From: a virus
Lineage: Duplodnaviria > Caudoviricetes
Virus record (IMG/VR): IMGVR_UViG_3300020045_002897
Span: 1 to 39,894 of that record
DNA: 39,894 nt
Reading direction: 5' to 3' (one strand)
A program made the position numbers and the translations under genes. Position 1 is the first letter of the stretch; every line of letters starts with the position of its first letter. Below are positions 21,970 through 39,388 of the stretch, one piece after another. The notes under the pieces are model-generated. The model searched no databases, was not told the origin of the DNA, and worked only from the letters and a program-made list of their open reading frames with translations.

Positions 21970-23195
21970 GGGGCTTTGCCATCCGGCTCTAATCCATCAG
22001 GGGTGTTCGGTCCCGGATTAAGCATCATTACCGAACCTTCCTGTTTCAGGACAAGATAACCGGCCCGAATAGCGCCGGTTATCACTGCTTCGAAGTCAGA
22101 GATTTTGGGGAAGTAAGTATGGACGAAACGGTAGGCTTCGGTCCAAGGGCAACCACCCCGTTTGTGGACATACCAGATCAAGCGTTCGATGTAGAGGGAA
22201 TCTTCGGACTTGCCGATCTTGGAGAACACGAATTGCATATCAGGTTCAAGGTCTGTGACCATGGTATTGGCTAGGGCGAGGTGTTCGGGGGTTATGATGA
22301 GGCGGTCGGACTCGGCTGCGGCCAGTATCATGGCTAGCTTGTGGATATGGGTCTGTTTACGGGCGAGATAACCACCGAAACGGTCGTCGTCGAGGCCGAC
22401 GTGTTTGGATGAATAGTGTGCGGCATACCAAGCTTCACCCCAAGCTAGGGCGGAGGAGGTCATTTTGTATTCGCCAGCCAACAGTGATATTTGAGTCAAG
22501 TCTTCGATTAGTTTTTGCGCCGTGTCGGCTAGGTCCCTTGGCACGTGCTGGCCCGGATAAGCTACGTATTTGGCCTTCCTATCCGCGTAGACGAAAACAC
22601 AGCGGGAGGTAAACCCGCCGCCAATCATGTATTCAGGGAAGTTGCCCGCAATCCACGCGGGAGTGGTGCAAGCGATTAGATTAATCCACGGGTTCTCGAC
22701 AATGTCTGTGCCGGAGCCTTTTGTCCGCTTTTCAAACGCGCCGGGCTTGCCGTCCCATAGTGCCACGAGGAGATCGACCATTTCCTTGTCTTGAGGGTTG
22801 AGTAGGTTCCCGAACTCGGAAGACTCAATCGTCATGGCAGACATGGCGTGGTATTGGCCCTCGTATTCGAAAGTCATTGTGGAGTCCGCAAAGCCGGTTA
22901 CGAGTGCTTGCCAAGTCACGACGTCAGGGCCGAAGCGAATGTCGGGAACCTTTTTAAGCAGGGACATACCGATGCCAGCTGTGGTAGACTTGGACACAAT
23001 GCCCGGCGGAGCTACTAGAATGATGTAGAAGTTCGGATGCCATTTGAAGTAGGCCATGTCCAGCCAGACCTTACGACGAAGTGCCCCTGCGATAGATGAT
23101 ACCGCAGTCCAGAAGTGCATATGTTTTGGTGCTTCCGAATACTCGGCGTAGTCTAAGTAAGCCTGTATCCAGTTTTCAAAATGTCGTTTAGCCAC
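21966..23195 (-). CDS. DUF3987-type AAA+ (MCM-like) replicative helicase candidate
   Basis: SEAP...HFW, Walker A-like VAPPGIVSKST, Walker B-like TIESSEF, GGGFTSR arginine finger, C-terminal winged-helix-like segment. GTG 23195 overlaps the polymerase stop. Confidence 0.75.
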   Translation of the reverse strand: MAKRHFENWIQAYLDYAEYSEAPKHMHFWTAVSSIAGALRRKVWLDMAYFKWHPNFYIILVAPPGIVSKSTTAGIGMSLLKKVPDIRFGPDVVTWQALVTGFADSTMTFEYEGQYHAMSAMTIESSEFGNLLNPQDKEMVDLLVALWDGKPGAFEKRTKGSGTDIVENPWINLIACTTPAWIAGNFPEYMIGGGFTSRCVFVYADRKAKYVAYPGQHVPRDLADTAQKLIEDLTQISLLAGEYKMTSSALAWGEAWYAAHYSSKHVGLDDDRFGGYLARKQTHIHKLAMILAAAESDRLIITPEHLALANTMVTDLEPDMQFVFSKIGKSEDSLYIERLIWYVHKRGGCPWTEAYRFVHTYFPKISDFEAVITGAIRAGYLVLKQEGSVMMLNPGPNTPDGLEPDGKAP

Positions 23196-25551
23196 AAGCC
23201 CCCCACGATACTGTCGATGTTTTAAGTCCAACCGGAATGGTTAGCGGCTCTGGATAAGGTAGTTCGACAGCGCAGTGAGAAAGTATTCGGTCTCGATAAA
23301 CTTCACCTCGGTCGATAGGGTATTGCCCCGCGAGGCTATCGTGAACCTGAAGTAAGACTTGGACATCGGACTCGTTTCGATGGATATTTCTGTAGCCTCG
23401 ATTGATGAGACATGCAACAGTTGATTGAGGTATCCAAGCAACGGCCTGATTATAGATTGTTCCCTCAATACGATCAAAGAAATAGTATCGGTAGCCGAAG
23501 ACATTTTGGACATACCTTCGAGTATTGACAGCAGATATGATGCCGTCTTGCCAGTCGCGAATTTGGGGGAACTTCCCATAATACCACCTCTGGATACGTT
23601 CGACCTCGTGCGTAACGAGTCCAATTCGCCCAGATAGTCCGCTCGGAGTTCCGAGATAGTTTGTTCCATGGCAGAGGGCTTTGAACAGCTTATAGGAGGG
23701 GTGATACTTGTCAATCGTTGGGTCACGATAATATTCCTTTGCGACTTCTACATAGGGCTTGAGACCTTCGGCAAACATGGCCTTCATCTCGGTGCAGTCG
23801 GACTCCCACACTACTATTCTCAAATCGGCGGAGTCAAGGTCGATATCGAAGAACTCCATGGACTCATCGGCTAGGAAGAGCTCGCGGATATTGGGTAGGT
23901 CGGAGTCACCGGAAGGGACATTTTGCAGGTTCATTCCGGAGCCGAAGGCGTTTTCGGATGATGAGAAACGATAAGTGTCCGTGCCAGCAATATTGAAGCT
24001 ACAGCGCATTCTGTCATCAATATCGACCGGGGCTTCAAGAAAAGTCGATCGGAAGACATTGAGAGATCGGAGGTCGGAAATACGCTTCGTGATTGGGAGT
24101 AGAAGAGGTTCACGCGTTCCCAGCTTTGTGAGTGCTTGATCATCTGTTGTTATCCCTCCCCCTCGTTTTTTGATAGGTGTCTGGTTAAGCTGCCGGTAGA
24201 ATAAATCCTGCATCTGTTTGGGCGAGCGGATATTGATAGGGTAGCCGATAAGGAATTCGAGTTCCTCATTCCGTTCAGCAATCGCAGCTGCGAGCTTATC
24301 CGAAAGGGCCGATTTGGAAGAGTTATCAACACGGAGACCTCGTATCATGGTGGCAAGGACAGGGTAGAATAGAGATTGTTGGAAGTCGTGGACCTCGCGG
24401 AGTTCCGGCCAAGTGGGCAGCATCTTTTCCAATGCGGCTTGTTGGGAGGTATCGACCTCGTAGGTGACGCAACAGTCCTTGCAGTTGTAGACCCAGAGTT
24501 GGTCTTCGCCGAGCTTCGGGTCCCAGTTCTTCGACTCGTCCTTCCAGTAGATATGATGCTCGCAATGGATGGATGCGAGGAAGTCTAGGCCCTTGGGCTG
24601 GTTGGAGAACATAGAATGTTGCGCGATCATGGTGTCGCGCTTTAGGCGAGGGATGAAGTGGAAATGGCGGTAGAAGTATTGAGCGTCGTAGATGAAGTTC
24701 TGCCCGATGATCTCGGCGTTGGGGTGGGTTAGGAGGCGATATAGCAGGTGCATGATGAAGGCTTCTTCATCTTCCAGCCAGTAGTGGAGCTTGGACTCGA
24801 CGACTAGGTGAGGTATGCAGATGGCGTCGAGGTTGGACCATGCGATGCCGGTGCAAGCGGTGTGTCCGCCACGGGTTTCGATGTCTACGGATAGCTTGGT
24901 TGGACCGGCGGAAACCTTGGCCATGAGCATATTTAGGGTGGAGACAACGGCGGAGAAGCTAGGCCGGACAATGAAGTTGTATTCGGGCGGAGCTGGTAGG
25001 TTGTCGAGAGCGGAGATGGAAACGATCTTACGAAAATCATTAACGACGATGCTGCGTTCCTTGTAAACCATGCGAACATAGGATGGAGAGTAAGTCGCCA
25101 TGACTATGCACGAATGGCCGGAAGGGGTTGTGTAAGGTAGGATTGAGCTGCGCCATGACTTCATTCCCCATTTGCCGGTCAGGGCGTAGAGGACCTCGTT
25201 ATCGAATACCACGACGACCTTGGGCTTGACGAGATCGATGTCGGTGTTCAGGCGGATGAGGCCTTCGTGCATGGAAGGCAGAACCATCTTGGCTCCCATG
25301 GCTGTGTGTTCGTGGGTAATGTCGGCTTTCTTCTGCGCGACTTGTGTGGAGATGGAGTTTGATCTGACCTGCTCGCGGAGGAAGCTGGTCTGGAAACACT
25401 GGAATAGATTTCCGCCAGCCTCGGCAATTAACTTCCCTAATTCTCTCCCGTCTGAACCTTGAAATGGTTTACCGGCGCGAATGTCCTCCCAAGAAGGTGC
25501 GCCAGCAACTAGCATTATCCGAGCATTGCTCGGTCCGAATGGTTGGATCAC
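23188..25551 (-). CDS. polA: Family A DNA polymerase with N-terminal UDG-like domain and 3'-5' exonuclease
   Basis: ExoI VDIET, ExoII NFIYD, ExoIII YNCKD. GTDTYRFSS, NLQNVP, motif A DLDSADLR, motif B KALCHGTNY, motif C LLQVHDS. N-terminus GPSNARIMLV..AP...GKPF.G..G resembles family 4 UDG. Confidence 0.95.
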   Translation of the reverse strand: MIQPFGPSNARIMLVAGAPSWEDIRAGKPFQGSDGRELGKLIAEAGGNLFQCFQTSFLREQVRSNSISTQVAQKKADITHEHTAMGAKMVLPSMHEGLIRLNTDIDLVKPKVVVVFDNEVLYALTGKWGMKSWRSSILPYTTPSGHSCIVMATYSPSYVRMVYKERSIVVNDFRKIVSISALDNLPAPPEYNFIVRPSFSAVVSTLNMLMAKVSAGPTKLSVDIETRGGHTACTGIAWSNLDAICIPHLVVESKLHYWLEDEEAFIMHLLYRLLTHPNAEIIGQNFIYDAQYFYRHFHFIPRLKRDTMIAQHSMFSNQPKGLDFLASIHCEHHIYWKDESKNWDPKLGEDQLWVYNCKDCCVTYEVDTSQQAALEKMLPTWPELREVHDFQQSLFYPVLATMIRGLRVDNSSKSALSDKLAAAIAERNEELEFLIGYPINIRSPKQMQDLFYRQLNQTPIKKRGGGITTDDQALTKLGTREPLLLPITKRISDLRSLNVFRSTFLEAPVDIDDRMRCSFNIAGTDTYRFSSSENAFGSGMNLQNVPSGDSDLPNIRELFLADESMEFFDIDLDSADLRIVVWESDCTEMKAMFAEGLKPYVEVAKEYYRDPTIDKYHPSYKLFKALCHGTNYLGTPSGLSGRIGLVTHEVERIQRWYYGKFPQIRDWQDGIISAVNTRRYVQNVFGYRYYFFDRIEGTIYNQAVAWIPQSTVACLINRGYRNIHRNESDVQVLLQVHDSLAGQYPIDRGEVYRDRILSHCAVELPYPEPLTIPVGLKTSTVSWGACG

Positions 25552-25794
25552 TTAACGCTCCCAATGTGATTTGATACTTGCCCAAACTGTCCGACCGTTG
25601 AAAAGTCGGCGCAGGATGTAACTACGGGCTACTGAAACAAGAGTAAAGATAGCTGTGATGAGCAGGTTCTGACTCCAAGTCATTGGGATGCTCATTGCTT
25701 TAGCTACAATGACCCAAGTAATAAGGGAAATTATAAAACCTATAGCTGTGTTGGTTACAGCCTCCATGAAGGAGTCGATGCGGGACTGGCTCAT
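25552..25794 (-). CDS. Small membrane protein
   Basis: MSQSRIDSFMEAVTNTAIGF...SVARSYILRRLFN, two TM helices. Confidence 0.8.
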   Translation of the reverse strand: MSQSRIDSFMEAVTNTAIGFIISLITWVIVAKAMSIPMTWSQNLLITAIFTLVSVARSYILRRLFNGRTVWASIKSHWER

Positions 25795-27143
25795 ATCGAT
25801 AGCAGTTCAGGAGCTTCGTCCAGTGCGTTCAGTCGCTGGACGGAGATGCCGTAGTATTCAGCTGATTGCTCCAGACCGACAGCTTTGCATTTAAGCTGAT
25901 GCGCGGCAGGGAATATCGTTCCTGTTCCCGCAAAAGCATCCAATACCACGTCTCCGGGCTTGACCGATCGTTTGAGAAGATCGACGTATAACTCGACTGG
26001 CTTCTGCGCACCGTGAGTGAGATTTTCTTCCAAGACTGTGGATATGACGTCAGAGTAAACTCCAGTAACAGGCTTCCTGCCTTTAATGGCATATATGCAC
26101 ATCTCCCATTGACGCTTGGGTCCGTGCTCAGGAAGTGGTATGCGGCCGGAGCGTGGCTTGTAGTTGATAAGAGGTGTCCGAAAGACATACCAGTCAGCCT
26201 TTTGTAATAGATGTTTCAGTTCGTGGAAGTTGTCGATATCGCAGAACATATAGAGATGGGCTTGGGGTTTGGATACTTTGTAGAGCAGTGGGCAGAGATC
26301 GATCATCAAGGCTTGCCAAGTCGTCTTACTATCATCGTAATGGTGCTCTGCATTTCCCATTGTCCCCGCTCCATCCCCAAAAGACTCTGCGCCCATACCA
26401 TAAGGAGGGTCTGTGCAAATAACATCGAAAGTATTATTGGGACAGTTGCGGAGCCACTGAATACAATCTGTATGGTGAAGCTGATGGATAGAAGAGTTAA
26501 AATTCCTTCCGACTCGATCTGCAAGTTCTGCATTTTTCCTTTGCGCCTCCTGTTTGACGAGTATTTTCATCGCGTCCTTGGCGGTCTTGGCCTTGGCAAT
26601 CGCGGGGTTGTCGAGATGGTCGGCAAGGATAACGTCAGACCGAACCTTCGCGTGGAACGAGCCTAGGTCGGCGGATGATTTGGCTTCGATGTTGCCTTGG
26701 AGTTCGTTCGCCGTGTCGCGGATTGTTTGGGTTCTGCCGATGGCCTCGGCTTGCTTAATGCGCAGGGCGTGTAGTCGCGCAACTGCTTCCGACCTCTCCT
26801 GCCAAGTCAGGTCGCGGCGCTTGAGGTTCTCGTCTAGTTCGGCTTCTTCCGCTTCGAGTTCGCCTAGTTCTCCTAAGGTGACGTAGGGAACCTCATAGGG
26901 TGGATAGGCGGTTCCGTTGTGGCGTATTCCGTCGCCCATGGCCCATAGGTCCGCCATGGCTCGCAATCGGCGTTCACCGGCCACCAAAACCAGCCCTAGG
27001 GTGGTTTCACGCATGACAGGGGCGTGTAATAGACCTATAGCGGCTATACTGTTCGATAGGTCAACCAGCGACTCGGCTTCAAACTCTTGCCGCTGCCGAT
27101 TTTCCGAGATTATGATGTTGTCGATGTTGGTGGAGTGAGTCAT
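25791..27143 (-). CDS. ParB/Srx-domain plus beta-class amino (N6A/N4C) DNA methyltransferase fusion
   Basis: N-terminal RQR...SIAAIGLLHAP...LVAGERRLRA...ENLKRRDL. C-terminal motif IV TDPPY precedes motif I VLDAFAGTGT; HGAQKPVEL. Confidence 0.9.
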   Translation of the reverse strand: MTHSTNIDNIIISENRQRQEFEAESLVDLSNSIAAIGLLHAPVMRETTLGLVLVAGERRLRAMADLWAMGDGIRHNGTAYPPYEVPYVTLGELGELEAEEAELDENLKRRDLTWQERSEAVARLHALRIKQAEAIGRTQTIRDTANELQGNIEAKSSADLGSFHAKVRSDVILADHLDNPAIAKAKTAKDAMKILVKQEAQRKNAELADRVGRNFNSSIHQLHHTDCIQWLRNCPNNTFDVICTDPPYGMGAESFGDGAGTMGNAEHHYDDSKTTWQALMIDLCPLLYKVSKPQAHLYMFCDIDNFHELKHLLQKADWYVFRTPLINYKPRSGRIPLPEHGPKRQWEMCIYAIKGRKPVTGVYSDVISTVLEENLTHGAQKPVELYVDLLKRSVKPGDVVLDAFAGTGTIFPAAHQLKCKAVGLEQSAEYYGISVQRLNALDEAPELLSI

Positions 27144-29903: not shown

Positions 29904-30015
29904 GGGGTTTCTCCGTTTTCGAGTTTAGTTAATAGGCTGTAGAGGTATGTGCGGTCAGATTGCTTAGTCAGGTCGAGAAAACGATCATCGTAATAATCCA
30001 GTTCGATATGACACT

Positions 30016-30213
30016 TCACAGCCCCAACTCCGACAGCAGGTCGTTAGCATCGACCTTTGGCTTGGCTGTTCTGCTTTTCGCCGGTGGCATGGCTTGCCTT
30101 TCCTGCCGAAGGAATATAATCGCCTCCTTCATCTCTGGCAGAGATAGAGTCCCGTCGCGGGCCTTGGCTCGCCACTCGGCAACCTTTTGTTGCATTTCAA
30201 GGGATACGGTCAT
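30016..30213 (-). CDS. Small helical protein, first gene of the replication operon
   Basis: 65 aa directly downstream of the promoter at 30272; ends KPKVDANDLLSELGL. Confidence 0.8.
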   Translation of the reverse strand: MTVSLEMQQKVAEWRAKARDGTLSLPEMKEAIIFLRQERQAMPPAKSRTAKPKVDANDLLSELGL

Positions 30214-32523: not shown

Positions 32524-32790
32524 CTATTGCTCCTTTGCTGCGCGGATGGCTTGGGCGATGGCTTCCGTCCTGTCGTATGGGGAGCAGGGCAAGTCGAACG
32601 CTGGTGTTACGTTAAACCCTTCAGCAATCACAGCCGCCTGTTCCAGACCCTCTCGGCGGGCTTGTTCGGCATGGCGGGAGAAGGTAGTGGCAAGAGCCAA
32701 CCGAACGCCTTGGCAGTTGGGGTATAGATACCGTGTTGAGAAATTCGTGGCTGCATCCATGTCAGCCTGTGCAGGCGTTACCTCGGTCAT
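32524..32790 (-). CDS. Hypothetical protein
   Basis: EVTPAQAD, ARREGLEQAAVIAE...IAQAIRA, typical of small phage early-region ORFs; ATGA coupling. Confidence 0.75.
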   Translation of the reverse strand: MTEVTPAQADMDAATNFSTRYLYPNCQGVRLALATTFSRHAEQARREGLEQAAVIAEGFNVTPAFDLPCSPYDRTEAIAQAIRAAKEQ

Positions 32791-34256: not shown

Positions 34257-34537
34257 GAGAGTCTCCTGTTTTTAAGTTCGAGGTATTGGGCTTGGCTCAA
34301 CGACGCGGTGAGTGTCCCGCGCCAGTCTTGCTTGTATCTACCCCCGACGGTCATGGGCTTGATAGGCTCGTGACTGTTGGAAGGTAGATTGGCCTTCGCA
34401 GCTGCCATTGTCTGGTAGGTTTGAAGGATACGTATCCCACGGCATAGAGCGAAGCGCGTGGCTTGATGTGGCGGGCACTCAGTCCATTTGCGACCTCGTC
34501 CGACTTGACGTTGCGGGATGATCTTAGTCGTCCGCAT
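34253..34537 (-). CDS. Basic hypothetical protein
   Basis: GGAG RBS; tiles with neighbours. Confidence 0.65.
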   Translation of the reverse strand: MRTTKIIPQRQVGRGRKWTECPPHQATRFALCRGIRILQTYQTMAAAKANLPSNSHEPIKPMTVGGRYKQDWRGTLTASLSQAQYLELKNRRLS

Positions 34538-34769: not shown

Positions 34770-34868
34770 CTAGCCTTTCGTTATGACATAAACAGTTATC
34801 AGCAGGAAGGTCATAAAGGCCGCTGATATGAAGCACAGTATGACGCCTTTCATCCCATCGTCTAGCAT
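34770..34868 (-). CDS. 32-aa single-pass membrane microprotein (not in the ORF track)
   Basis: GAGGTG RBS; MLDDGMKGVILCFISAAFMTFLLITVYVITKG*; fills the gap exactly. Confidence 0.6.
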   Translation of the reverse strand: MLDDGMKGVILCFISAAFMTFLLITVYVITKG

Positions 34869-35047
34869 ATCACACCTCTGACTTCCAGCCATTCGCGGAC
34901 GAGGGACTCGATGAGCCGAGCCTTTGCGCCGTGCGGGACTGCTCCCATGACTTCGGAATATAGCTCCAATTCCATCTTGGCATAGATCGAGCCAGCGATC
35001 TTGACATTCAGCTGAACCGTCGGGTCAGTTTTCTTCGGCATGGGCAT
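34862..35047 (-). CDS. Ribbon-helix-helix (Arc/CopG-like) DNA-binding protein
   Basis: MPMPKKTDPT-VQLNVKI (alternating strand)-AGSIYAKMELEL (helix)...KARLIESLVREWLE (helix); AGGA RBS. Confidence 0.65.
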   Translation of the reverse strand: MPMPKKTDPTVQLNVKIAGSIYAKMELELYSEVMGAVPHGAKARLIESLVREWLEVRGVIC

Positions 35048-35922: not shown

Positions 35923-35966
35923 CTTGAAATCTCCTGTTTATTCAAGACTAGGTCGGAAAATCCCGC

Positions 35967-36005
35967 CTAGACGTTACGCATAGCTAACCCCTACGGGTTT
36001 GTCAA
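35967..36005 (-). promoter_or_regulatory. Sigma70-like promoter overlapped by operator copy 4
   Basis: - strand TTGACA (36005-36000), 17 nt, TATGCG (35982-77). CTAGACGTTA-N8-TAACCCCTAC at 35967-35994. Confidence 0.7.
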
Positions 36006-36030: not shown

Positions 36031-36186
36031 AAAAACCCCGCTGGCATCCGGAGGGGTGGATACAACCAGCGGGGCAAAAACCAAGGAAAACGGGAGGAAA
36101 ACCTTGGTTTTTAATTCGGGGCGGGGAGATCAGCGCCAACCAACCTCCCCGCAGTCAGGGGTTCCAAGGAGCAACCCGCCCCTGAC
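36031..36186 (-). ncRNA. Candidate structured 3'-UTR small RNA: four stem-loops ending in an intrinsic terminator
   Basis: Closely tiled inverted repeats at 36154-36186, 36121-36152, 36076-36112 and 36036-36074. G-U extensions and the final U-tract fit the - strand. Two loops contain CCUCC. Confidence 0.55.
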
Positions 36187-36756
36187 TTATTCGGCCTTCT
36201 TGCCCTTGCCACCAAGGTCCAGCTCTGCCAGCAAGCTGTCGGTATCGACAGTTGTCTTGCTGTTCGACTGCTTCTCGGCTTCGAGACGCTGGACGATGGG
36301 ACGCAGCTTGTCCGAATTGCGGAGAGCCAGCTTTTCGGCCTGCGACTTGGTGGACAGATAGGTCTTGATGTCTGCGGGCGACTTGCCCGAAGCTTCGACC
36401 AACGCACGGGCCAAGATCGACGTTCCAGCGAACGAACCGCCGCTCGAACGACCTGCGTTCCATTCACCCTTTTCGAGGCGGGCGATCAGGTCTTCAACCG
36501 CAAGCACCTGATCATCAGGGTCGGTCTCACCTGCGATGCAATCACCGAGCTTCTGCTCCGCGCCGTGCGCTGCGAAACGAGCGAGCATCTCATCAGGCAC
36601 AGTGAACGAGCGAGTCTCGCCATTGCGAAAGTCAAGCTGGACGGAAACAACATTGCCGTCGATCGTGGAGGTCTTCACCAGCTTCTGTTTGGTGGTGAAC
36701 TCAACAACTCGGCCATCGGTCATTGTAACGGGGACTTTTGCAGCAGCTTCTGCCAT
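36187..36756 (-). CDS. Early protein of unknown function (paralogue A)
   Basis: AAAGGA RBS, own promoter and terminator; clear similarity to 38799-39314. Confidence 0.9.
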   Translation of the reverse strand: MAEAAAKVPVTMTDGRVVEFTTKQKLVKTSTIDGNVVSVQLDFRNGETRSFTVPDEMLARFAAHGAEQKLGDCIAGETDPDDQVLAVEDLIARLEKGEWNAGRSSGGSFAGTSILARALVEASGKSPADIKTYLSTKSQAEKLALRNSDKLRPIVQRLEAEKQSNSKTTVDTDSLLAELDLGGKGKKAE

Positions 36757-36817: not shown

Positions 36818-36846
36818 ACAATTGCATAGAGATAGGGCGGCGTCAA
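36818..36846 (-). promoter_or_regulatory. Sigma70-like promoter
   Basis: TTGACG, 17 nt, AATTGT with extended -10 TG, upstream of the ATG at 36756. Confidence 0.6.
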
Positions 36847-37819: not shown

Positions 37820-37878
37820 TGGGCTGTCTCCGTTTTGGGTGAATGGGAGCAAGGCGCAAACCCTGCTCCCGAGGTTGG

Positions 37879-38280: not shown

Positions 38281-38646
38281 TTATGCAGCTTTTGGGGAAT
38301 TAGTCGTAGGCTTAAACATCGATTTATCCTCTTTCTGCTGCTTAGCCGTCGCGTATCGCAAATTGAGGCTATCATTATTCTGTTTATCGCCGTCTATGTG
38401 GTCTATTCCGTCCGCTTCATCGGGCCGAGGTCCGATGAACGCCTCAGCGACTAGTTTATGAATTGTCAATGTTTTGGCTTTCCCATTCCGACATAGCCCT
38501 ACACAGAAATATCCATGCCCGTTTAAGCTAGCTGTTAATTCCGGTTTTGGTCTGTGGTTACGTAAACCGACTCGGACGCGTCGAACGTTGCCGATATTGC
38601 TGACCATATATTCAGGCCAACCGATTACTGAACGCCACTCTTGCAT
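38281..38646 (-). CDS. NUMOD4-HNH homing-endonuclease-like protein
   Basis: EWRSVIGWPEYMVSNIGNVR (NUMOD4); IHKLVAEAFI...IDHIDGDKQNNDSLNLRYAT (HNH). Confidence 0.88.
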   Translation of the reverse strand: MQEWRSVIGWPEYMVSNIGNVRRVRVGLRNHRPKPELTASLNGHGYFCVGLCRNGKAKTLTIHKLVAEAFIGPRPDEADGIDHIDGDKQNNDSLNLRYATAKQQKEDKSMFKPTTNSPKAA

Positions 38647-38723: not shown

Positions 38724-38751
38724 TTGCAATGTTGCTAGGTCTGTTTATATT
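38724..38751 (+). promoter_or_regulatory. Sigma70-like rightward promoter
   Basis: TTGCAA, 16 nt, TATATT; GGCTTGCAAT recurs at 39324-39333. Confidence 0.55.
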
Positions 38752-38798
38752 TCAGGTTGTCGGTCAATAGTGATCGCACAAAAACTGGAGTAAATGAA

Positions 38799-39314
38799 AT
38801 GGCAAGAAAGAACGCAATCGTATCCGTCGCAGTAGCTAGCGGCGCAATCACATTTACCGTCGCAGACGTTGGTGACATCGTCGTCGATGTCACAAAACTG
38901 TCGGACGAAATCACCGAGCGCGCAACCTATCACGGCCTAGTGCAGAAAATTAGCGATGCTGCCGCACTAGGCAAGGATGCAACCCCCGCCGACAAATACA
39001 ACGCTATGAAGGCTGTAGCTGACCGACTGGTTGACGGTGAATGGAAACAATCTCGCGGCGAAGGTGCTGGTCCTGTGGCTGGTGTTATCTTCCGTGCGTT
39101 TGTGCAGTGGGTTGGTGATAGGGCGAAGGCCGCGAAAAAACCCGCCCCCGCAACTGAGGCCATTCGCGCTGTCTATGACGGCAAGACCCGTGCGGAACAA
39201 CTAGCCCTTCGTAATGTGCCGGAAATCGCGGCCATTATCGAAACGTTGAAGGCGGAAAAACAACCCAAGACCGCTGTGGATAGCGCCGCGCTGTTGGCTG
39301 ATTTGGGGTTGTAG
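38799..39314 (+). CDS. Early protein of unknown function (paralogue B)
   Basis: GGAG RBS before ATG 38799; similar to 36187-36756; followed by a terminator. Confidence 0.88.
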   Translation: MARKNAIVSVAVASGAITFTVADVGDIVVDVTKLSDEITERATYHGLVQKISDAAALGKDATPADKYNAMKAVADRLVDGEWKQSRGEGAGPVAGVIFRAFVQWVGDRAKAAKKPAPATEAIRAVYDGKTRAEQLALRNVPEIAAIIETLKAEKQPKTAVDSAALLADLGL

Positions 39315-39359
39315 TATCAACGGGGCTTGCAATCGGTAAGAATTGCGCCCATAGAATAG

Positions 39360-39388
39360 CCAGCGGGTTTAGCGACTCGCTGGTTTTT
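39360..39388 (+). terminator. Intrinsic terminator
   Basis: CCAGCGGGT / ACTCGCTGG stem followed by TTTTT. Confidence 0.7.

What the first reader, a model, noticed from the sequence alone, without database searches (positions are those of the whole stretch)
36031..36186. Four-hairpin 3'-UTR RNA with anti-Shine-Dalgarno loops: candidate phage-encoded regulatory sRNA
Seen: the 156 nt after the stop of gene 36187-36756 are almost entirely tiled by four stem-loops. On the - strand they read GUCAGGGG..CUCCUU..CCCCUGAC; a 14-bp stem GCGGGGAGGUUGGU/GCUGAUCUCCCCGC whose four G-U pairs work only on this strand; AAAAACCAAGG-[UUUUCCUCCCGUUUU]-CCUUGGUUUUU; and CCCCGCUGG..UAUCC-[ACCCCUCC]-GGAUG.CCAGCGGGG-UUUUU. 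One hairpin would suffice for termination, and two exposed loops carry CCUCC. Known: alphaproteobacterial cuckoo/CcsR and AbcR-type sRNAs present C/U-rich anti-SD loops to pair with ribosome-binding sites, and CcsR RNAs are processed from a 3' UTR. Inference: an early phage RNA that occludes SD sequences of host or phage mRNAs.
Basis: partly seen in the sequence, partly recalled or inferred. Interest (0 to 1): 0.8.

Follow-up and report, generated by a model that had tools for sequence, protein, structure and literature searches.

The report
Phage RNA loops mirror own start-sites
In a large family of uncultured 40-kb phages, the RNA tail behind one conserved early gene folds into hairpins whose loops mirror the ribosome-binding sites of the phage's own early genes and change in step with them from phage to phage, so it likely acts as a built-in brake on early protein synthesis, although the match in this particular genome is imperfect and nothing has been tested at the bench.

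Summary
The four hairpins are real (minus strand z -5.7) and match no Rfam family. The cuckoo/host-silencing reading is not what the comparison supports. The gene in front belongs to a large phage-only family. In 57 dereplicated relatives the stems do not align, but the loops are complementary to the RBS of that phage's own next gene: at least 8 nt in 25 of 57, against 3.5% for other phages' sites, with 28 different words. They also match the RBS of a distant paralog, which sometimes lies on the other strand (15 of 24 at 7 nt or more; 2.1 expected). The gene's own RBS is spared. Held-out contigs replicate this (12 of 18). The window is a weak member: hairpin 3 pairs 8-9 bases around one mismatch with both predicted targets and has two compensatory changes against its nearest relative, but the duplexes are only about -9 kcal/mol. 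Best reading: a 3'-UTR antisense brake on the first genes of other early transcription units, working like P1 c4 RNA without being a member. No RNA data. The scan reported the same principle earlier in other phage genomes. Interest 0.7.

The parts
36187..36756 (-). Conserved early gene (189 aa, P0001) whose 3' UTR is the RNA; phage-only family, function unknown
   Evidence: 1493 homologs; no PHROG or Pfam hit; no clear fold match
36818..36846 (-). Predicted sigma70-type promoter of this gene (TTGACG-17-AATTGT with upstream TG)
   Evidence: consensus match only; a similar site in 25 of 35 relatives scored
36154..36186 (-). Hairpin H1; loop word UUGCUCCUU (36174-36166) is a perfect 9-nt complement of the RBS of gene 32522; not significant on its own
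36121..36152 (-). Hairpin H2, 14 bp with 4 G-U pairs; no loop seed; not seen in the nearest relative
   Evidence: L001 read
36076..36112 (-). Hairpin H3; seed CUCCCGUUUU (36096-36087), the likely antisense element; homologous hairpin in L001
36031..36075 (-). Hairpin H4 plus U run: intrinsic terminator with ACCCCUCC loop; no clear target found in the window
35977..36005 (-). Predicted promoter of the next early unit (TTGACA-17-TATGCG), directly behind the terminator
   Evidence: read from sequence; same layout in L001 and many relatives
35931..35939 (-). Predicted target 1: RBS AAACAGGAG of the first downstream gene 35922-35719 (8 of 9 pairs with the H3 loop)
   Evidence: family test
38780..38790 (+). 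Predicted target 2: RBS AAAAACTGGAG of the paralog (9 of 10 pairs with the H3 loop)
   Evidence: family test
38799..39314 (+). Paralog of P0001 (171 aa, 32% identity) on the opposite strand, with its own predicted promoter at 38724-38751
34263..34273 (-). Possible further target: RBS AAAAACAGGAG of gene 34256 (9 of 10 pairs)
   Evidence: post hoc
37828..37836 (-). Possible further target: RBS AAAACGGAG of gene 37819 (pairs with one bulged C)
   Evidence: post hoc
29911..29919 (-). Possible further target: RBS AAAACGGAG of the PD-(D/E)XK nuclease gene 29903
   Evidence: post hoc
32527..32535 (-). Possible H1 target: RBS AAGGAGCAA of gene 32522
   Evidence: about 0.5 matches this good are expected by chance among 58 starts

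Best explanation
This is the hairpin-tiled 3' UTR and terminator of a conserved phage early gene, whose exposed loops likely pair in trans with the ribosome-binding sites of the phage's own early mRNAs and would so shut down their translation. Shown: the hairpins; family-wide, phage-specific complementarity of loops to the SD region of the first gene behind the next promoter and of a paralog in a separate unit; sparing of the gene's own RBS. Inferred: the mRNA is made from its own sigma70-type promoter and accumulates, either whole or as a processed H3-H4 piece (cut site guessed at the A/U linker between H2 and H3). Loop-first pairing then covers the SD and blocks 30S loading, perhaps with polar effects on the units behind. 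The result would be a timer that turns down the first early units while the source gene stays on. In this genome H3 is the likely working loop; the roles of H1 and H4 are unresolved and H2 probably only stabilises.
For: Cognate first-gene RBS: at least 8 nt perfect complement in 25 of 57 versus 3.5% of non-cognate pairs; best of 20,000 permutations 9. Without the terminator filter 27 of 75 versus 4.0%. Held-out contigs: 12 of 18 versus 19%, permutation maximum 10; paralog 7 of 13 at 7 nt or more (2.35 expected); own RBS 0 of 14. Paralog RBS 15 of 24 at 7 nt or more (2.1 expected); loop-only test 5 of 7 for paralogs on the opposite strand (0.2 expected), which cannot pair in cis. In L135 two different loops match the two targets, which share only 4 nt. 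Orientation is strict: same-sense matches of 8 nt or more in 2 of 57. Matches sit in unpaired RNA (0.69 versus 0.39 for the whole UTR and 0.47 for non-cognate matches) and over positions about -14 to -5. 28 distinct words among 32 matches; cognate beats the nearest relative's RBS 32 to 12, 13 ties, p 0.002; the paralog's own 3' stretch gives 0 of 24 and coding sequence 2 of 57. Window: H3 pairs 8 of 9 and 9 of 10 with the two family-predicted targets in one register; loop and first-gene RBS show two compensatory changes against L001; AAAC.?GGAG is at 5 of 58 window starts versus 22 of 1905 elsewhere (pattern chosen after seeing the data).
Against: The window has no perfect loop match to its first gene (best perfect match 6 nt, in a stem). 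The H3 duplexes are only -8.7 and -8.9 kcal/mol, rank 25 and 22 of 58 window starts (many of those starts are false calls), and rank 40 of 57 in the family. The whole window UTR reaches the same scores with 13 of 56 foreign first genes and 2 of 24 foreign paralogs, so the joint chance is about 0.02, not tiny. Across all 58 window starts no loop shows an excess of one-mismatch matches. 25 of 57 relatives have no match of 7 nt or more. Flanking G-U pairs are not favoured over A-C (17 versus 18), so this test gives no RNA-specific signal. The sense strand is more stable in only 40 of 57. No target was found for H4. No expression data.
Confidence: 0.62

Rival explanations
1. The system works in the family but has decayed in this genome, where the hairpins now serve only termination and protection of the mRNA 3' end.
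For: Central mismatch in both window duplexes, weak energies and middling ranks; H2 and H4 without targets; H3 and H4 both end in U runs.
Against: Both predicted targets share the rare AAAC-N-GGAG word (0 of 56 foreign first genes, 1 of 24 foreign paralogs), and loop and RBS changed together against L001.
Confidence: 0.14
2. Pairing happens only in cis: in transcripts that read through the terminator the loop folds onto the next gene's RBS, so that gene is translated only from its own promoter.
For: The strongest class is the adjacent gene (24 of 54 versus 1.9 expected), 150-350 nt away on the same strand in most loci.
Against: Opposite-strand paralogs match too (5 of 7), and in L135, L170 and L183 the paralog match is not explained by words shared with the first gene.
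Confidence: 0.1
3. One reading: a generic anti-SD small RNA, cuckoo- or alpha-r8-like, whose main job is to occlude host ribosome-binding sites.
For: The window's H3 loop holds 9 of the 10 bases of the alpha-r8 core UUUCCUCCCU; weak Rfam likeness to anti-hemB, E 0.47, 22 bits against a cut-off of 49.5; CUCC lies in or beside a loop in 30 of 57 UTRs.
Against: Loop words differ between phages and follow each phage's own RBS words. CCUCCUCCC and the full decamer are in 0 of 57, and the 9-mer only in the window. The host is unknown, so host targets were not tested.
Confidence: 0.09
4. The shared words are DNA-level protein sites or relics of local inverted duplication, with no RNA pairing.
For: No G-U preference at match edges; first gene and paralog leaders often share 7-11 nt.
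Against: Only the complementary orientation is enriched, matches sit in hairpin loops and centre on the SD, and the surrounding stems are unrelated between phages.
Confidence: 0.05

Closest known systems
c4 antisense RNA of phages P1 and P7 (passage in review PMC12197685)
   Same: Phage RNA that presents complementary sequence in loops, pairs around the ribosome-binding site of a phage mRNA and blocks translation; specificity differs between related phages (P1/P7 heteroimmunity).
   Different: c4 targets the antirepressor mRNA of a temperate phage. Here the RNA is the 3' UTR of a coding gene, the targets are first genes of separate early units, no antirepressor, integrase or repressor was recognised, and there is no Rfam match.
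Cuckoo / CcsR (RSs0680) sRNAs of Alphaproteobacteria (PMC4615179, passages)
   Same: 2-4 adjacent hairpins with variable stems and anti-SD-like loops.
   Different: Cuckoo loops all carry a fixed CCUCCUCCC. Here the motif is absent (0 of 57), loops differ within one RNA, and they vary with the phage's own RBS words.
3'-UTR-derived autoregulatory sRNAs OppZ and CarZ (PMC7398697, abstract) and the icaR 3'-UTR/5'-UTR pairing (PMC3868564, abstract)
   Same: A 3' UTR that represses translation by pairing at a ribosome-binding site.
   Different: Those act on their own transcript. Here the gene's own RBS shows no excess complementarity (6 of 54 versus 4.4 expected; 0 of 14) and other units are the targets. 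Processing and Hfq dependence are unknown.
alpha-r8 sRNAs (MmgR, SisA-D) (PMC12559287, passages)
   Same: The window's H3 loop has 9 of the 10 core bases; terminator at the 3' end.
   Different: The full decamer is in 0 of 57 UTRs, the 9-mer only in the window, and it lies in the loop of an 11-bp hairpin.
T4 RegB endoribonuclease (abstract of PMC1702504 in search listing)
   Same: Phage-encoded shut-off of early mRNAs aimed at GGAG.
   Different: RegB is a protein nuclease; this would be an RNA doing a similar job on a few chosen leaders.
Start-associated sequences of cluster K mycobacteriophages (PMC3203893, passages)
   Same: Private extended RBS words in front of non-structural genes, with a lone copy in the opposite orientation in several genomes; function unknown.
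   Different: SAS are a 13-bp consensus at 93 sites across the cluster's six genomes. Here the words are 7-10 nt, on few genes, and the complementary copy is in a hairpin loop of a defined 3' UTR.

Membership tests
Cuckoo / CcsR | 2-4 adjacent hairpins with variable stems | tested here: met
   4 hairpins in the window; 2-4 in 52 of 57 UTRs
Cuckoo / CcsR | CCUCCUCCC in every loop | tested here: not met
   0 of 57 UTRs hold it; definition from PMC4615179
Cuckoo / CcsR | Rfam model match | tested here: not met
   no match to these families at E up to 5 in the window; 0 matches at gathering score in 20 of the loci
alpha-r8 (MmgR/SuhB/SisA-D) | UUUCCUCCCU decamer in a single-stranded stretch before a terminator | tested here: not met
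   9 of 10 nt in the window only, full decamer 0 of 57; no Rfam match
AbcR / alpha-r15 | Rfam model match; conserved anti-SD loops (features recalled, no paper read) | tested here: not met
   no match
c4 antisense RNA (P1/P7) | loop-displayed sequence complementary to the RBS region of a phage mRNA, varying between relatives | tested here: met
   (sequence prediction; imperfect in the window)
c4 antisense RNA (P1/P7) | Rfam C4 model match | tested here: not met
   no match
c4 antisense RNA (P1/P7) | target is an antirepressor mRNA in a temperate immunity region | tested here: inconclusive
   no antirepressor, repressor or integrase family among 55 ORFs scanned, but the target proteins are of unknown function
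3'-UTR-derived sRNA (OppZ/CarZ type) | stable RNA released by RNase E and bound by Hfq | not testable with these tools
   no sequencing run was listed for the region
3'-UTR autoregulators (OppZ/CarZ, icaR) | pairs with its own transcript's RBS | tested here: not met
   own RBS 6 of 54 versus 4.4 expected, 0 of 37 loop-only, 0 of 14 held out

The most novel reading that the evidence does not exclude
Each lineage of this phage family carries a private RNA lock-and-key code: modular 3'-UTR loops (one loop per target class, added or lost freely) matched to private words at the start of early units. Besides timing its own early genes, a resident phage would silence the first genes of any superinfecting relative that shares its word, giving c4-like exclusion specificity in a lytic phage and driving the words apart. 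The conserved protein in front, whose N-terminal sheet weakly resembles Pur-alpha, could be the matchmaker.
Probability: 0.15. Interest if true: 0.88.

Novelty: new variant of a known kind. Interest (0 to 1): 0.7.

Why it matters
Trans-acting RNA control of early genes is barely documented for lytic phages. The parts of the review I read (PMC12197685, parts 1-2 of 6 and passages) give mostly temperate-phage or cis-antisense cases. Here a widespread family (1493 homologous proteins) shows dozens of natural loop/RBS pairs that have changed together. That gives a ready-made compensatory-mutation test, an explanation for long structured 3' UTRs that would be read as plain terminators, and a lesson for detection: the element is invisible to covariance models because only the pairing relation is conserved. 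It also bears on unexplained private RBS words such as the mycobacteriophage SAS. Orthogonal loop/RBS pairs could serve as translational switches.

Tried and rejected
Rfam: only sub-threshold anti-hemB (E 0.47) and sR5 in the window; nothing in 20 related loci. Sequencing runs: none was listed; this is no evidence either way. Protein function: no PHROG or Pfam family; Atlas neighbours are unnamed viral clusters; Foldseek PDB has nothing at E 0.001 for the full or N-terminal model; BFVD gave 3 unnamed viral hits; VIA best Z 5.4 and 5.1, with Pur-alpha at Z 4.9 (rmsd 3.4, 58 aligned) and 4.2, too weak to name a fold. Unrestricted duplex-energy ranking of window hairpins against all starts was dominated by G-rich false starts and was uninformative. 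H1 to gene 32522 (9 of 9) is not significant alone. H4 to gene 37206 (bulged match) has no family support (first upstream gene 7 of 47 versus 6.2 expected). The G-U flank test was neutral. My promoter caller did not separate targets from non-targets and missed the window's own downstream promoter, so 'first gene of a unit' rests on layout, not on that test. The excess in the opposite-strand class is partly an artefact of antisense ORFs overlapping the UTR; these were removed. One search used a misregistered structure string and is not evidence. In one search the paralog start was one base off (38800 for 38799); corrected with the same match. A 39-codon ORF behind the SD-like 5' strand of H2 (from 36139) was set aside because L001 has no such hairpin (read by eye). 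Closer relatives than L001 were not found. The tree is a quick, poorly resolved one and was used only for orientation. Nine literature searches were answered; none listed a paper describing this element or this arrangement in a lytic phage, but most subscription papers are outside the library, and the primary c4 papers were not read. No supplements were consulted.

Full report
Context. The window reads as a 39.9-kb tailed phage: terminase, portal, head, tail and lysis genes on the + strand; primase, DNA polymerase, methyltransferase, Sak4-like protein, nuclease and Dda-like helicase on the - strand, preceded by a block of small unknown early genes. No integrase or repressor family was found among 55 ORFs scanned. 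The host is unknown: capsid relatives infect Bradyrhizobium, Myxococcus, Stenotrophomonas and others at 44% identity or less, and three contigs with the gene sit in bins labelled Gammaproteobacteria, which may be misbinned phage.

Observation. The four hairpins are as described. The - strand folds better than the + strand (z -5.73 versus -3.61), H2 has 14 pairs with 4 G-U, and H4 ends in a U run. A promoter-like site lies before the gene (36846-36818) and another directly behind the terminator (36005-35977). So the gene plus UTR looks like a one-gene unit of roughly 0.8 kb (inference). Rfam has no match.

Family. The protein has 1493 homologs, an unrecognised fold and a 32% identical paralog at 38799-39314 on the other strand. 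I fetched 211 loci; with the window, 196 of 212 were usable and 85 remained below 85% identity. Of these, 75 had a called gene within 420 nt and 57 also had a terminator by rule. UTRs are about 45-250 nt with 1-6 hairpins, mostly 2-3. By eye the stems are unrelated except between close relatives, while loops are C/U-rich.

Main result. Reading I noticed that loop words were the reverse complement of the RBS of the next gene in the same locus, and tested it. Longest perfect complement between UTR and positions -20 to -1 of the first downstream gene: 8 nt or more in 25 of 57 cognate pairs versus 3.5% of non-cognate pairs, and no permutation of 20,000 exceeded 9; 27 of 75 versus 4.0% without the terminator filter; 19 of 45 at 75% dereplication. 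Allowing one mismatch, 24 of 57 reach 9 pairs versus 2.7 expected. Genes 5-8 and beyond show no excess (4 of 135 versus 4.4; 11 of 277 versus 8.7), nor does the gene's own RBS. A second target class is the paralog: 15 of 24 at 7 nt or more versus 2.1 expected, including 5 of 7 on the opposite strand in a loop-only test. Other early genes behind a gap show a smaller excess (18 of 179 versus 7.6 at 7 nt), while middle and late genes mostly do not. Controls: same-sense matches 2 of 57; matches are unpaired (0.69 versus 0.39) and centred on the SD; the paralog's own 3' stretch 0 of 24 against 11 of 24 for the real UTR in the same genomes; coding sequence 2 of 57; nearest-relative swap 32 better, 13 equal, 12 worse (p 0.002); 28 distinct words among 32 matches; 23 of 32 matches lie upstream of the terminator hairpin and 9 within it. 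Held-out test: a new scan gave 31 new dereplicated loci, of which 13 were dropped by the same rules (6 no near gene, 7 no terminator); 12 of 18 matched at 8 nt or more versus 19% non-cognate (high because one clade shares a GAGGCUC word), permutation maximum 10; paralog 7 of 13 versus 2.35; own 0 of 14; other downstream genes 16 of 118 versus 5.5. So words are lineage-specific: sometimes shared within a clade, often changed. Against: 25 of 57 loci lack a 7-nt match (some through wrong start or terminator calls), and the G-U flank test is neutral (17 versus 18).

The window itself is a weak member. Its best perfect match to the first gene is 6 nt in a stem. The H3 loop CUCCCGUUUU pairs 8 of 9 with AAACAGGAG (35939-35931) and 9 of 10 with the paralog's AAAACTGGAG (within 38780-38790), with the mismatch at the same central base. 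The nearest relative L001 (71% protein identity) has the homologous H3 and H4 with altered but still paired stems; its loop CUCCUACU pairs perfectly with AGUAGGAG. Between the two phages, two loop bases and the two facing RBS bases have changed together, and the L001 paralog RBS follows its own loop (7 nt). The word AAAC.?GGAG occurs at 5 of 58 window starts versus 22 of 1905 in other genomes, a post hoc pattern. But the duplexes are only about -9 kcal/mol, rank mid-table, and the joint chance for the two predicted targets using the whole UTR is about 0.02 (13/56 x 2/24). H1 matches the RBS of gene 32522 perfectly over 9 nt, which chance could give; H4 has no clear target.

Mechanism. Pairing that covers the SD would block 30S binding (established for RBS-pairing sRNAs). 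Seeds that start in a loop and run into the top of the stem fit loop-first pairing followed by strand invasion (inference). Opposite-strand targets require action in trans. Sparing of the gene's own RBS means the source can keep being translated while it turns down the first genes of neighbouring early units: an RNA timer for the early phase (inference). Whether the active form is the whole mRNA or a processed piece is unknown, and no run was listed for the region. The direction of control, any chaperone, and host targets are untested.

Comparison. It works like the c4 RNA of P1/P7 (loop-borne pairing at a phage RBS with phage-specific words; review passage) but fails the Rfam test and has no recognisable antirepressor target. 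It shares the outline of cuckoo RNAs but not their fixed motif. Unlike OppZ/CarZ and icaR (abstracts) it spares its own RBS. T4 RegB is a protein analogue (listing). I class it as a new variant of RBS-pairing phage antisense RNA. After my tests, the scan's notes showed the same principle reported for other phage genomes (55 findings fit the words, 8 shown). These are unchecked AI notes and not independent support. No look-alike DNA was listed for this stretch, and the one note on this protein family concerns the paralog pair, not the RNA.

Verdict. Observation confirmed; interpretation partly right, with the target side changed from host-like generic SDs to the phage's own early leaders. Family-level covariation is strong and replicated; function in this genome is likely but less sure (0.62). 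Interest 0.7.

Noticed in passing
window 38799-39314 (+), promoter 38724-38751, terminator 39358-39385: A paralog of the 189-aa gene in its own small unit on the opposite strand; a paralog was found in 24 of 57 related loci, on either strand. Its own 3' stretch shows no complementarity to first-gene RBSs.
   Followed up: yes
window 35977-36005 and equivalent sites in L130, L133, L136, L132, L155: The promoter behind the terminator has an imperfect palindrome between -35 and -10, often with a second similar copy just downstream in relatives; candidate operator sites. In the window and L001 the -10 element lacks the final T.
   Followed up: no
window 34862-35047 (-): A 61-aa protein conserved in the same unit across relatives (starting MPRPKKIDRP-like); resembles a ribbon-helix-helix regulator from memory, but Pfam gave no hit. 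Candidate binder of the promoter palindromes.
   Followed up: partly
window 30016-30213, 36187-36756, 38799-39314: Three proteins end in a similar peptide (D-x-x-x-LL-x-[ED]-L-[GD]-L); the 171-aa protein at 35540-35025 begins with a related acidic amphipathic stretch. Possibly a shared docking peptide.
   Followed up: no
window 25791-27143 (-): ParB N-terminal domain fused to an N6/N4 DNA methyltransferase.
   Followed up: partly
window 23188-25551 (-): The DNA polymerase has an N-terminal extension that resembles a family-4 uracil-DNA glycosylase from memory; not tested.
   Followed up: no
window 36139 onward (-), inside H2: The 5' strand of H2 is a perfect SD (GGAGGU) followed by a TTG and a 39-codon ORF running through the terminator; no equivalent seen in L001, so probably chance.
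   Followed up: partly
L189, L183, L210 (MW202489): Some relatives repeat the private RBS word at several early genes (five or more in L189, four in L183, three in L210), so the target set can be larger than two.
   Followed up: partly
window 38281-38646 (-): Free-standing HNH endonuclease between the paralog unit and the leftward early genes.
   Followed up: no
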